From an uncultured Collinsella sp. (lineage in GTDB: Bacteria > Actinomycetota > Coriobacteriia > Coriobacteriales > Coriobacteriaceae), in assembly GCA_900544065.1 (NCBI GenBank), contig UQTR01000002.1:9208-73207 (forward strand): DNA of 64,000 bases. The letters run 5' to 3'. Numbering within the stretch: the stretch's first letter is position 1; each line of letters opens with the position of its first letter. The position numbers are program-made. Below, one piece after another: positions 12,001 to 15,000 of the stretch.

Positions 12001-15000
12001 CGTCGATCCTTGGGGTTACGGCTGCGCTCGATGAGGCCGTTGAGCTCGAGCTTGGACAGGATCTCGGAAAGCGACCCCGGCTTGAGGTCAAAGTGCATGC
12101 CGAGTTCCTGCTGCGACATCTCGCCGCCGGGTTGCTTGGCCAGCAGGCAGATGATGGGCGCCTTGCCGGACACGCCTCCGCCATGAAAGTGCATGTAATG
12201 GCCGCAAAAGCCCAGATTATTGAGGATGCGCTTAGCAAGCTTGTCTTCGGCGCTGACCGCTTCGGGTACATCCGCCGGCTGTGACGGGTCGCCGCCGGGC
12301 TCGTGCGGAAGGACGAGTGGTTCAACACACATATCTAAGCTTCGCTCCTTTCTTTAGTTAGGTAGAGGAATTGTTTTGTGCCTAACTAATCTAGGAGCGT
12401 GAGAAATAAATGTCAAGGTACCAAACTTATTAAGTTACGGCGTTTTACCAAACGCCGTAACCGCTCGACGCTGCAAACGCTCCTAAGCGGCAATCTGGCG
12501 TTCAATCGTCGGGCATGGCCACAAGGCCTATGCCCTCCTCTTTCACGCCACCTTGCTCGCTTAGGAACGTTTTCGCTGTCCGTCCTCAATCTGCGGCGCT
12601 GCCTCGGTTGGCATTTGGGTAATCCCTTGGGGACGGAGGAAAAACGGATCATTCTGGGCTGTGGTGACACCCTTCCGAAGTTGCTTTGCCCAAAACTATG
12701 CCGGATTACTACGATGAATTCGAAATCTCAGACCTCGGCATTGTTTTTCGGAAAATCACAAGCTGTCTACCTGCGGTTTTGCTGGAGTGCAATTTGTTGT
12801 GGTTGGAGACTGGCGGTTTATCGTAGTAATCCGGCATAGTTTTGGAATGGTAGTAAATAGGTGGCAGCTACTGTGCCGCTGCTGCCGTGATTTGCCTCCC
12901 ATTTCCGAAACCTTTCCGCAACAATGCGTTCTTCGCGACCCTAGTGACTGCTCACGACGCCTCCTGCGCTACACTTAGTCGCACTATGGCGACATCGCGC
13001 CGCGCCCGACCCAAGGGGGACTCTCATGAAGAATACTCAGCTGCTGCTGATTAACGATATGTGCGGCTACGGCAAGGTCGCGCTTTCCGCCATGCTGCCG
13101 GTGCTGTCGCACATGGGTTACCGTATCCACAATCTGCCGACGGCACTTGTGTCCGATACGCTCAACTATCCCAAGTTCTACATCCACGACACCACCGAGT
13201 ACGTGCGCCAAAGCCTCGCTATCTGGGAGGAGCTCGGCTTTGAGTTCGACGCCATCTCGACCGGCTTTATCGTGACCGAGGAAGAGACGCGCATCATCTC
13301 GGACTTTTGCCATCGCCGTGCGCAAAAGGGCACCAAGGTGTTCGTCGACCCCATCATGGGCGACAACGGCAAGCTCTATGCGGGCGTGCCCGAGTCCACG
13401 ATTGGCCTTATGCGGCATCTGTTGGAGTGCGCAGACTACGCGGTGCCCAACTATACCGAGGCGTGCCTGCTTACCGATACGCCTATCGCCGAGCAAATTA
13501 CGCCCGACGAGGCCCGCGCCCTTGTGGACGCCGTGCGTGAGCTGGGTGCCAAGTCTGTGGTCATTACGAGCGCCGTAGTCAATGGCACGAACGCGGTTAT
13601 CGGTTACGACCATGTGGCGGGGGAGTACTTTACGATTCCCTTTGAGCTCATTCCGGTTTATTTCCCGGGCACGGGCGACACGTTCTCGGCGGTGCTCGTC
13701 GGCCGCGCGATGGCCGGTTGGAGTCTGCAGCGCGCGACGGCCGATGCCATGCGTGTGGTGGCTGAGCTTATCGAGCGCAATGCCGACCAGGAGGACAAGT
13801 CGGCCGGCCTTCCCATCGAGGCCTGCCTGGATGTGATTGACCATGAGTAATGCTGGCGAGGGCGGCGTCAAGCCTGCGGGCGAGAACAAGCCGCTCGGCG
13901 CTCCGCGTGGCAAGCGCCCGCGTATTCGCATTAGCTGCGTGGACCAGCTGGGGACGTGCCGCTGCCACCATGGTCACAAGCCCGGCGACGTCTTCGACTT
14001 CGACCGAGACCGCGGCAAGATGTGCGCCATGGCCTGCCATGTGGGCTTTCCCTATATCGATATCCTGCGCTATGGCGGAACCGTGCCTGGCAACAAGCCC
14101 GGCACGGCAAAGTTCTGCTGTCCCGAGGTCGATACACTGAACGTTTGGCTTGCCGAGATCGTAGACGAGTAGTCGGGCGCAATGTGACAAAGGGACAGCC
14201 CCTTTGCCACATTCGCCGGTGGTGCCCCTTCTTTTACTTATAATCTCAAATCTCTGCATTTCATCCGATTTTAGGTTCTAAAAATTCTGCGTTTCATCGA
14301 TAATCAAGCATATAAAACTTTGCATTTCATTCGATGACGCTGAGGGGAGAGCCTATGCTGCGTAGGAAAATAGCGGCAGAGCTGGAGCGTTGGCTGAAGT
14401 CTTCCGAGCAAAAGGCCTTGTTCATTACGGGTTCTCGCCAGATTGGCAAAAGCTATTCGATTCGCGCATTTGGCAAAGCCAACCATGCAACCTTCATCGA
14501 GCTTAACCTCATGGAAAACCGCCAGGCAAAAGATGCTCTTCTCGAGGCGCGGGATGCCGATGATTTCATCAGCAGGGTGACGCTTCTTTCGGGAAAGTCG
14601 ATTGCACCAGGCAAAACGCTTGTGTTTATCGATGAGGTCCAGGAGGCCCCCGACATCATGACGATGGCAAAGTTCCTTGTTGAGGACGGGAGGTGCCGCT
14701 GGGCGTTTTCGGGGTCAATGCTCGGGACTCAGTTCAAGGGCGTCAGGTCCTATCCCGTGGGGTATGTTCACGAGCTTAGGATGTTCCCGCTCGATTTTGA
14801 GGAGTTTTGCTGGGCAATCGGGGTGAGCGAGGGGGCTCGCCAAACGATACGTGACGCGTGTATCAGCGAGAGGCCCGTTCCTGATTACATTCATGACGCG
14901 ATGATGGCAAACTTCAGGACCTATACCGTTGTCGGCGGAATGCCGGAGGTCGTGCAGCGTTTCCTTGACACGCGGGGCGACCTTGCCTCTGTTCGTCAGC

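What the first reader, a model, noticed from the sequence alone, without database searches (positions are those of the whole stretch)
12434..12650. Family B element: two hairpins conserved by compensatory substitutions across three copies (candidate structured RNA or DNA element)
Seen: copy 1 (12434-) is collinear with copies 2 (47489-) and 3 (63119-) but diverged in sequence. Hairpin 1 is GTTACGGCGTTT-TACC-AAACGCCGTAAC here and GTTACGCGGTTT-TACC-AAACCGCGTAAC in copies 2 and 3. Two adjacent stem positions are swapped on both arms, so the perfect 12-bp stem is kept. Hairpin 2 is GGGCAT-GGCC-ACAA-GGCC-(T)-ATGCCC here and GGGCGC-GACC-AGAA-GGTC-(A)-GCGCCC in copies 2 and 3. Three base pairs are changed compensatorily, and both versions keep a 4-nt purine-rich loop and a single bulged nucleotide four pairs from the loop. 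The downstream word TTTCACG-CACCTTG is conserved. Inference: five compensated pairs in ~25 stem positions argue for selection on structure rather than mere repetition. Copies 2 and 3 start 1-2 nt after the stop codons of prfA and the LCP gene, which could indicate a 3'-UTR-derived sRNA, a terminator or a processing module. Copy 1 lies in a divergent promoter region, so a simple terminator role does not explain all copies.
Basis: seen in the sequence. Interest (0 to 1): 0.65.

Follow-up and report, generated by a model that had tools for sequence, protein, structure and literature searches.

The report
Stop-codon-hugging hairpin repeat of Collinsella
The two hairpins are real and belong to a larger, previously undescribed folded repeat that occurs many times in genomes of the gut bacterium Collinsella, almost always starting right after a gene's stop codon; it resembles the palindromic repeats (REP, ERIC, MITE) of other bacteria rather than a dedicated RNA gene.

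Summary
The three copies are on the + strand at 12434, 47489 and 63119. A fourth, divergent copy lies at 8008-8109 on the - strand. All belong to a modular repeat of Collinsella.

Each copy has four parts:
- a 28-nt perfect hairpin (HP1);
- a linker ending in GACGCTGC;
- a tail module.

Across 92 distinct copies, 96.7% of pair cells are paired and 29 of 47 pairs show changes on both sides. This is far above the shuffled and slid controls.

In 108 of 119 copies a same-strand ORF ends between 7 nt before HP1 and 1 nt into it. Ordinary hairpins downstream of stop codons start a median of 27.5 nt away.

Several results show that copies exchange sequence or move:
- orthologous sites often hold different SL subfamilies;
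- chimeric copies exist;
- one orthologous site lacks exactly the SL plus one copy of its 8-bp flanking repeat;
- an IS110-family element inserts at the element's TCG-CT-GAC.

No Rfam family, phage sequence or paper matches it.

Best reading: a new REP/BIME- or MITE-like repeat that is transcribed at the start of 3' UTRs. Whether the structure acts in RNA or in DNA is not resolved.

The parts
12434..12461 (+). Copy 1, HP1: perfect 12-bp stem with TACC loop (GGC/GCC variant)
12462..12474 (+). Copy 1, linker CGCTC plus the conserved 8-mer GACGCTGC (5' copy of the direct repeat that flanks SL)
12475..12577 (+). Copy 1, long stem-loop SL. P1 is 12475-12490 paired with ~12557-12572. P2 is 12491-12505 paired with 12541-12555. 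SL ends in TCGCT.
12578..12603 (+). Copy 1, tail module C (type 2: GTCCGTCCTCAATCTGCGGCGCTGCC)
47489..47516 (+). Copy 2, HP1 (GCG/CGC variant); starts directly after the prfA stop codon TAG at 47486-47488
47517..47633 (+). Copy 2, linker (GACGCTGC at 47522-47529) plus SL at 47530-47633; the tip is hairpin 2 at 47567-47591
47634..47656 (+). Copy 2, tail module C (type 1: GGCATTGCCAAAACATCGAGG); other small palindromic repeats follow up to ~47715
63119..63146 (+). Copy 3, HP1 (GCG/CGC variant); starts 1 nt after the stop codon of the LytR_cpsA_psr (LCP) gene, whose ORF ends at 63117
63147..63263 (+). Copy 3, linker (GACGCTGC at 63152-63159) plus SL at 63160-63263; the tip is hairpin 2 at 63197-63221
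63264..63290 (+). Copy 3, tail module C (type 2); other small repeats follow up to ~63395, then a terminator-like hairpin at 63440-63465
8008..8109 (-). Fourth copy: divergent SL without HP1. It lies directly after the stop codon (8110-8112) of the ABC transporter gene 8110..10173 (-) and upstream of a bidirectional terminator-like hairpin at ~7951-7990.
46421..47488 (+). prfA (PCRF + RF-1 domains), the gene whose stop codon abuts copy 2; prmC follows at 48068..49417
61876..63117 (+). LytR_cpsA_psr (LCP) gene, whose stop codon abuts copy 3

Best explanation
Family B is a dispersed, modular foldback repeat of the genus Collinsella. I estimate some tens to about 150 copies per genome. It is of the same general kind as REP/BIME, ERIC and MITE elements.

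A full unit is about 175-180 nt and has four parts:
- HP1, a 28-nt perfect hairpin;
- a linker ending in GACGCTGC;
- SL, a 103-nt long imperfect stem-loop whose arms behave like long terminal inverted repeats and whose tip is a G+C-rich hairpin followed by a pyrimidine/T-rich tract;
- a second, degenerate copy of the 8-mer that runs into tail module C.

Shown:
- The fold is conserved by compensatory change across many subfamilies.
- The unit sits in sense orientation with its 5' end between 7 nt after and 1 nt inside the stop codon of the upstream gene.
- Copies exchange or replace their SL cores.
- SL can be present or absent as a discrete unit bounded by the 8-bp repeat.

Inferred:
- The unit is transcribed as the first part of the 3' UTR or intercistronic RNA.
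- It is tolerated or kept there because a very stable structure at that position shapes the 3' end of the upstream message. It could block 3'-to-5' exonucleases, give partial intrinsic termination at the tip hairpin, or slow the terminating ribosome, which must melt HP1. The last effect is reported for E. coli REPs within 15 nt of a stop codon.
- It spreads and stays uniform through DNA-level events: transposition by an unidentified enzyme, or recombination through the conserved HP1/linker and TCGCTG/C flanks.
For: Nearly all are Collinsella or Coriobacteriaceae. Many contigs end inside the element.

Structure:
- RNAalifold on 92 distinct copies predicts 47 pairs, 29 of them with changes on both sides.
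- 96.7% of cells are paired and the covariation score is 0.425, against 0.122 in shuffles (0 of 500 reach it) and 0.05-0.09 for slid controls.
- Further HP1 variants found with the covariance model covary at four stem positions.

Position:
- 108 of 119 copies have a same-strand ORF of at least 60 codons ending between 7 nt before HP1 and 1 nt into it. A random control gives 8%.
- Ordinary perfect hairpins downstream of stop codons start a median of 27.5 nt away, and only 19% start within 7 nt.
- An independently annotated C. aerofaciens record shows a CDS ending 1 nt before the element, with nothing annotated on the element.
- The polarity holds in both convergent (50) and tandem (43) gene contexts.
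- Copy 3 and the 8008 copy lie between the stop codon and a separate terminator-like hairpin.

Exchange and mobility:
- 35-45% of orthologous sites whose flanks are at least 90% identical carry a different SL subfamily.
- Chimeric copies exist: L005, L069 and L002.
- L078 lacks exactly the SL plus one copy of GACGCTGC that is present in its orthologs L057, L052 and L059.
- An IS110-family element uses the element's TCG-CT-GAC as its insertion site in several species.

Constraint: in orthologous pairs of the same subfamily the element differs by 4.1%, against 12.6% at third codon positions. There are 64 double changes that keep pairing, where about 4 are expected.

Possible terminator equivalence: at the site orthologous to window 31476, L055 carries a family B element where the window has a canonical A-tract/stem/T-tract terminator.

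Stop-proximal REPs that stall ribosomes: PMC12306157, citing Liang et al. 2015.
Against: - No transcript data are available, so transcription is inferred only from position.
- There is no strand signal of RNA-level selection. G-U cells number 47 and A-C cells 48. The antisense RNA fold is more stable than the sense fold in 89 of 92 copies (-89.5 against -80.7 kcal/mol).
- The consensus terminator scan calls none of the three tip hairpins. Their tails have few T, and the stems contain a bulge.
- If termination happened at the tip, the 3' arm would not be transcribed, so termination cannot explain why the arms covary.
- Copy 1 and about 9% of copies are not next to an ORF.
- No transposase partner was found. 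The 8-bp flanking repeat is the same in nearly all copies, so it may have formed once. L078 may be a precise deletion rather than an empty site.
- The low divergence of orthologous copies could come from gene conversion rather than purifying selection. That estimate was also limited to pairs less than 12% divergent.
Confidence: 0.5

Rival explanations
1. Purely selfish non-autonomous mobile DNA, like a REPIN or foldback MITE. The hairpins form in single-stranded DNA and are what an unidentified transposase or recombinase recognises. Their place after stop codons reflects target choice or where insertions are tolerated, and there is no RNA-level role.
For: - The SL is present or absent as a unit bounded by the 8-bp direct repeat.
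- Subfamilies swap at orthologous sites and chimeric copies exist.
- G-U and A-C mismatches are equally frequent, and the bottom strand folds better.
- Another IS uses the element as a target, as happens with REPs.
- Contigs break inside the element.
Against: - 91% of copies are in sense orientation and within 7 nt of a stop codon, in both convergent and tandem contexts. Tolerance alone does not easily explain this, and ordinary hairpins lie much further out.
- The positions are conserved across many species (510 filled orthologous pairs).
- No RAYT-like gene was found in 0.96 Mb of Collinsella DNA around the elements. The two IS200-like TnpA genes that were found have unrelated hairpins.
- The variable arm sequences argue against a transposase that reads the terminal sequence.
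Confidence: 0.25
2. A dispersed intrinsic-terminator cassette. The tip hairpin plus its T/C-rich tail ends transcription of the upstream gene, and the rest of the element is carried along.
For: - One subfamily has a textbook form, AAAAGGCAGGGCATGACC-AGAA-GGTCAATGCCCTGCC-TTTTT.
- All subfamilies have a pyrimidine-rich 3' tail on the sense strand only.
- L055 has the element where the window has a canonical terminator.
Against: - The terminator scan calls none of the window copies.
- Copy 2 lies between prfA and prmC, a pair that is commonly co-transcribed in bacteria (general knowledge, not tested here).
- Separate terminator-like hairpins follow copy 3 and the 8008 copy.
- Termination at the tip cannot explain covariation of the outer helices P1 and P2, or HP1.
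Confidence: 0.1
3. A recombination site. Either HP1 (11-6-11 layout, 28 bp, like a dif/Xer or other tyrosine-recombinase core site) or the SL (like an integron attC: conserved fold, variable sequence, bulged bases, placed right after ORFs) is the substrate of a site-specific recombinase.
For: - HP1 is exactly 28 bp and can be read as two 11-bp inverted arms around a 6-bp asymmetric spacer.
- The SL shares the attC hallmarks of conserved structure, variable sequence, adjacency to stop codons and a more stable bottom strand.
- A discrete SL unit is gained or lost between direct repeats.
Against: - The copies are scattered next to core genes such as prfA, an LCP gene and an ABC transporter, not in cassette arrays.
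- The ends of the SL lack the attC core motifs RYYYAAC and GTTRRRY.
- HP1 stem positions covary, which points to base pairing rather than recognition by a protein dimer.
- About 100 active recombination sites per genome would destabilise the chromosome.
- No integrase was examined or found nearby.
Confidence: 0.05
4. A trans-acting small RNA family processed from 3' UTRs, or a specific binding site for an RNA-binding protein, with the conserved unpaired motifs (TACC loop, GACGCTGC, TTCAA/TTTCA, TCGCTG) as the active parts.
For: - Conserved single-stranded motifs sit next to freely covarying stems.
- The position is in the 3' UTR.
- Orthologous copies diverge more slowly than third codon positions.
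Against: - A copy number of about 100 with many subfamilies, chimeras and truncated copies is unlike a dedicated sRNA gene.
- No promoter or defined 3' end is evident.
- No Rfam family matches.
Confidence: 0.05

Closest known systems
REP/BIME elements of enterobacteria and pseudomonads, including the stop-proximal REPs of E. coli
   Same: - Short, high-copy extragenic palindromes that combine with other motifs into mosaics.
- They lie in transcribed 3' regions.
- They are targets of IS110-family elements.
- REPs within 15 nt of a stop codon are reported to stall the terminating ribosome (PMC12306157, citing Liang et al. 2015).
   Different: - There is no GTAG or CGTC tag (PMC3733652).
- No RAYT was found.
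- HP1 is a perfect 12-bp stem.
- Adjacency to the stop codon is far stricter: 91% within 7 nt, against 11-52% within 15 nt in E. coli.
- The phylum differs (Actinomycetota, class Coriobacteriia).
REPINs (REP doublets that form hairpins)
   Same: A hairpin of about 100 nt made of two inverted arms, treated as the replicating unit. There are populations of subfamilies, and compensatory change keeps the hairpin.
   Different: The SL arms are not themselves REP palindromes. No single-copy RAYT partner was identified. An 8-bp direct repeat flanks the SL; to my knowledge Y1 (RAYT-type) transposition does not produce flanking repeats.
ERIC/IRU and other foldback MITEs such as Correia, RUP and BOX
   Same: Imperfect palindromes of 100-130 nt located in transcribed intergenic regions. 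They have a modular build, and known effects on mRNA stability or termination that depend on orientation (from my own knowledge of the literature).
   Different: There is no sequence similarity. No TA target duplication was seen. There is a strong sense polarity and the element abuts the stop codon. No parent IS with matching ends was found.
Integron attC sites
   Same: The fold is conserved while the sequence varies. There are bulged bases and an unpaired central region. The element lies directly after ORF stop codons, co-oriented with the genes, and the bottom strand folds better.
   Different: There are no R''/R' core motifs, no cassette arrays and no integrase. The copies sit beside core genes at positions conserved across species.

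Membership tests
REP / REPIN-RAYT system | Short imperfect palindrome at high copy number in extragenic DNA | tested here: met
   HP1 (28 nt) and SL occur in at least 120 loci of Collinsella genomes. There are 151 nhmmer hits in 0.96 Mb. All are extragenic.
REP / REPIN-RAYT system | Conserved unpaired GTAG or CGTC tag at one end of the palindrome (PMC3733652) | tested here: not met
   HP1 begins with GTTAC inside the stem, and the SL arms vary. GACG, the reverse complement of CGTC, occurs in the linker but not as a terminal tag of an 8-9-bp stem.
REP / REPIN-RAYT system | A RAYT (Y1 transposase) gene flanked by the repeats | tested here: inconclusive
   tblastn with E. coli RayT against the window and 120 loci found nothing. 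The IS200-like TnpA genes in L114 and L003 have unrelated hairpins. No whole Collinsella genome was searched.
MITE | Terminal inverted repeats | tested here: met
   The SL arms P1 and P2 give about 40 nt of imperfect inverted repeat at each end.
MITE | Target-site duplication and empty orthologous sites | tested here: inconclusive
   L078 lacks exactly the SL plus one copy of the 8-bp GACGCTGC found in orthologs L057, L052 and L059. The same 8-mer flanks nearly all copies, and module C1 is almost never seen without an SL. A single ancient duplication, or a precise deletion, therefore fits equally well.
MITE | A related autonomous IS with the same ends | not tested
   No such IS was seen in the loci held. 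The IS110-family and IS200-like elements found have different ends.
Intrinsic (Rho-independent) terminator | G+C-rich stem-loop directly followed by a T-rich tract | tested here: inconclusive
   The consensus scan called none of the three tip hairpins, which have bulged stems and tails such as TCCTCTTTCA or TTTCGTTTCA. One subfamily in other species has a full A-tract/stem/TTTTT form.
Integron attC | R'' (RYYYAAC) and R' (GTTRRRY) core sites at the two ends, in cassette arrays with or without intI | tested here: not met
   The SL ends are GACGCTGC-[variable arm] and [variable arm]-TCGCTG. The copies are scattered beside prfA, an LCP gene and an ABC transporter.
Any Rfam family (including Collinsella-1, RF01700) | Match to the family covariance model at its gathering score | tested here: not met
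   There were 0 matches in the whole window at gathering thresholds. The copy 2 region at E-value up to 10 gave only chance hairpin matches to miRNA precursors and sRNAs.

The most novel reading that the evidence does not exclude
The repeat is a mobile module coupled to translation termination. Because HP1 (or the 5' arm of the SL) starts 0-7 nt after the stop codon, every terminating ribosome must melt it. The element would then link arrival of the ribosome at the stop codon to the fate of the message: refolding of the long hairpin, termination at its tip, cleavage or ribosome rescue. This control would have been spread to about a hundred genes by a MITE-like mechanism. A second, less likely reading is that the fold is a single-stranded-DNA recombination site, comparable to attC, for an unknown enzyme.
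Probability: 0.12. Interest if true: 0.75.

Novelty: new member of a known kind. Interest (0 to 1): 0.45.

Why it matters
Collinsella is a common human gut genus, and about one gene in twenty or thirty appears to carry this element at its 3' end. If the structure affects mRNA ends or translation termination, it adds a layer to gene expression across the whole genus. The family also gives an unusually clean natural test of whether palindromes next to stop codons act on the terminating ribosome. Its position rule (91% within 7 nt, always in sense) is much stricter than for E. coli REPs. On the practical side, it breaks metagenomic assemblies, serves as a landing site for an IS110-family element, and is a source of recombination between distant loci. 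It also shows that strong covariation in a foldback repeat is not by itself proof of a functional RNA.

Tried and rejected
- Rfam at gathering thresholds on the whole window, and at E-value up to 10 on copy 2, gave nothing relevant. Collinsella-1 (RF01700) does not match.
- The viral contig scan with the HP1 pattern gave 0 hits. BLAST against phage records gave no match. BLAST against plasmid records hit only a 900-kb C. aerofaciens replicon.
- Literature searches for Collinsella together with REP, MITE, REPIN or palindromic elements found no description of the family.
- Strand test by wobble pairs: G-U and A-C mismatches are equal in number, so this gave no information.
- Search for clean empty sites for the whole unit. 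The candidates (L007 and L072 against L020; window 31476 against L055) turned out to be replacements or complex indels, not clean insertions.
- A stop-codon bias (TAG 77, TAA 31, TGA 0) looked striking at first. It largely reflects the genome, where TGA makes up only 43 of 568 stop codons.
- A nested insertion in L077 was considered. The outer element does not resume after the inner one, so it is a truncation plus a second unit.
- RAYT and IS200 as the mobilising enzyme: no RayT homolog was found, and the IS200-like copies have unrelated hairpins.
- Integron attC, dif/Xer site, uptake-sequence pair and a protein operator were considered and ranked low, for the reasons given under the rival explanations.
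Full report
**1. What is in the sequence**

A degenerate HP1 pattern finds only these three sites in 64 kb, with none expected by chance. 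The two conserved words flanking hairpin 2 are also limited to the three copies. Copy 2 starts directly after the prfA stop codon. Copy 3 starts 1 nt after the stop codon of a LytR_cpsA_psr gene. Copy 1 lies between a MarR gene on the - strand (start 12332, with a promoter-like site at 12416-12388) and a + strand gene at 13026..13850 whose GC3 (G+C content at third codon positions) is 0.78.

**2. The family**

Nearly all are Collinsella or Coriobacteriaceae, so the window is from Collinsella. Many contigs end inside the element, as expected for a high-copy repeat. An nhmmer profile finds 151 hits in the 0.96 Mb held. About 30 of these were not selected by the scan, which gives roughly one per 28 kb. 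The window has four in 64 kb. By extrapolation this is some tens to about 150 copies per genome.

**3. Anatomy**

- HP1, 28 nt.
- A linker, NNNYC followed by GACGCTGC.
- A stem-loop of about 103 nt (SL). It has an outer helix P1 of about 15 bp whose sequence differs completely between subfamilies. It has a middle imperfect helix P2 (CAATCTGNCGTTCAA paired with TTTCACGNCACCTTG).
- The conserved TCGCT(G).
- A tail module C of two types.

Beyond this lie other small palindromic repeats that contain TTGGGGACGTTC. The arrangement is a mosaic, much like a BIME. Other arrangements also occur: HP1 alone (L095), HP1 plus linker without SL (L078), SL without HP1 (L022, L098, window 8008-8109) and tandem HP1 units (L105, L107, L021).

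**4. Covariation**

RNAalifold on 92 distinct copies predicts 47 pairs, and 29 have changes on both sides. Counting on that structure gives 96.7% paired cells and a covariation score of 0.425. The shuffled control gives 0.122 (0 of 500 shuffles reach the observed value) and slid partners give 0.05-0.09.

In the scan set, HP1 has only two middle variants: GCG/CGC (78 copies) and GGC/GCC (40), with 3 broken. That is effectively one event. Copies found with covariance model R1, however, have further HP1 forms. These are GTTGCGGCG...CGCCGCAAC, GTTACGCGGTTC-TAC-GAACCGCGTAAC and GTTCCGYCGTTC-TAAC-GAACGRCGGAC. Together they give four covarying stem positions.

Copy 1 folds at -75.6 kcal/mol as RNA (z-score -10.6). 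Its reverse strand folds at -52.9 kcal/mol as DNA (z-score -10.2).

**5. Position rule**

In 108 of 119 testable copies, a same-strand ORF of at least 60 codons ends between 7 nt before HP1 and 1 nt into it. In 33 of these, TA plus the first G of HP1 forms the TAG stop codon. A random control gives 8%.

The copies that the scan did not select follow the same rule, as do the SL-only copies. So does a copy in an independently annotated C. aerofaciens record, where the CDS ends 1 nt before the element and nothing is annotated on it.

The rule is not a general property of downstream hairpins in these genomes. Perfect hairpins of at least 8 bp after other genes start at a median of 27.5 nt, and only 19% start within 7 nt. 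The downstream neighbour is convergent in 50 cases and tandem in 43. In L046 two elements face each other, each next to its own gene. The polarity therefore follows the gene.

The absence of TGA stop codons is mostly a genome property: TGA accounts for 43 of 568 stop codons.

**6. Exchange and mobility**

- At orthologous sites whose flanks are at least 90-95% identical, 35-45% of pairs carry SLs less than 80% identical. That is close to the median for random pairs, 0.77. The prfA and LCP sites hold different subfamilies in different species while the junction with the stop codon stays the same.
- Chimeric copies combine the 5' arm of one subfamily with the 3' arm of another: L005, L069 and L002.
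- L078 lacks exactly 111 nt, the SL plus one copy of GACGCTGC, relative to orthologs L057, L052 and L059. This is the signature of a target duplication, or of a precise deletion between the repeats. Because the same 8-mer flanks nearly all copies and module C1 almost never occurs without an SL, I cannot tell which.
- An IS110-family element (DEDD_Tnp_IS110 plus Transposase_20 domains) is inserted at TCG-CT-GAC of the element in L005, L037, L045, L089, L109, L050 and L029. The dinucleotide CT is present on both sides. REPs are used as IS targets in the same way.

**7. Constraint**

In orthologous pairs that carry the same subfamily, third codon positions of the upstream gene differ by 12.6%. 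The element differs by 4.1% (paired sites 3.6%, unpaired sites 5.3%). There are 64 double changes that keep pairing, where about 4 would be expected if the two sides changed independently. This fits purifying selection. It also fits homogenisation by gene conversion, and hairpin-templated correction of palindromes. The comparison was limited to pairs less than 12% divergent.

**8. RNA or DNA?**

For RNA:
- The strict sense polarity and the abutment to the stop codon.
- The placement between the stop codon and a separate terminator-like hairpin for copy 3 and the 8008 copy.
- A T/C-rich tail after the tip hairpin on the sense strand only.
- One site where the element stands in place of a canonical terminator.

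Against RNA, or neutral:
- G-U and A-C mismatches are equal in number (47 against 48).
- The antisense fold is more stable than the sense fold in 89 of 92 copies.
- The terminator scan calls none of the tips.
- Termination at the tip cannot explain covariation of the outer helices.

My reading is a repeat that is propagated at the DNA level and kept, or tolerated, only where its transcript forms the start of a 3' UTR. There it most likely stabilises or shapes the 3' end and may slow the terminating ribosome, as reported for E. coli REPs within 15 nt of a stop codon (PMC12306157, citing Liang et al. 2015). The abutment to the stop codon itself remains unexplained.

**9. Comparison and novelty**

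No Rfam family matches, including Collinsella-1. There are no phage hits, and I found no paper that describes the family.

It works like REP/BIME, REPIN or ERIC elements. It fails the REP tag test (PMC3733652), and no RAYT was found, although the search was limited. It shares with attC sites the conserved fold, variable sequence and adjacency to stop codons, but it lacks the core motifs, the arrays and an integrase.

I class it as a new member of a known kind, with an unusually strict position rule.

**10. Verdict**

Interest is moderate.

Noticed in passing
window 8008-8109 (-): A fourth, divergent copy of the long stem-loop without HP1 (36.8 bits with model R1). It lies directly after the stop codon of the ABC transporter gene 8110..10173 (-) and before a bidirectional terminator-like hairpin at ~7951-7990.
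   Followed up: partly
L005 297-1829 (also L037, L045, L089, L109, L050, L029): An IS110-family insertion sequence is inserted at the same point of the element (TCG-CT-GAC) in several species, with CT on both sides. Its transposase is at L005 578-1699 (-), and its ends are CATATGACCCAATCCG... and ...CGGATTGGGTCATAGTGT. The repeat therefore serves as its specific target.
   Followed up: partly
window 31520-31650, 47655-47715, 63285-63395, 12620-12660: Other small palindromic repeat modules are built around TTGGGGACGTTC. Examples are TAGTCATTGGGGACGTTCTTAAATGACTA and GGCACTTGGGGACGTTCCTTTTGTGCC. They follow family B units and also occur alone, and they vary in presence between orthologous sites. 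There are 5 exact copies of the 12-mer in the window.
   Followed up: partly
window 3361-3394, 14180-14213, 15727-15760, 29424-29457: There are four copies of a 34-nt palindrome, GAATGTGACAAAGGGGCAGTCCCTTTGTCACATT (82-100% identical). One lies about 10 nt after the ORF 14334..15716. This is probably another REP-like or terminator family.
   Followed up: no
window 12691-12716 and 12820-12845: A perfect 26-bp inverted repeat (CCAAAACTATGCCGGATTACTACGAT) with a spacer of about 103 nt lies in the same divergent intergenic region as copy 1. It has no exact match in any of the 120 Collinsella loci.
   Followed up: partly
window 31476-31520 compared with L055 1862-1990: At one orthologous gene end, the window has a canonical A-tract/stem/T-tract terminator (AAAAAACCTCCCTG...CAGGGAGGTCTTTTTT). 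L055 has instead a family B element with a truncated 3' arm.
   Followed up: partly
all 92 aligned copies (alignment A2): The antisense strand folds on average 8.8 kcal/mol more stably as RNA than the sense strand, in 89 of 92 copies. The conserved mismatches on the sense strand are of C-A or pyrimidine type. I have no explanation for this.
   Followed up: partly
window and loci, gene ends: TGA is a rare stop codon in these Collinsella genes (43 of 568; TAG 300, TAA 225), although the window's G+C content is 60%.
   Followed up: no
window ~39500-44400 (+): A long coding region is made of many diverged tandem repeats of about 345-390 nt and larger units (repeat families D1-D11). It is probably a large repetitive surface protein.
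   Followed up: no
L114 6108-6566 (+); L003 1327-1725 (-): IS200-like Y1 transposase genes lie near repeat mosaics. Their flanking hairpins (CCACCC...GGGTGG) are unrelated to family B. In L003 an insertion beginning CAGAATGAGCGTGGAAAATCTCCCG truncates a family B stem-loop.
   Followed up: partly
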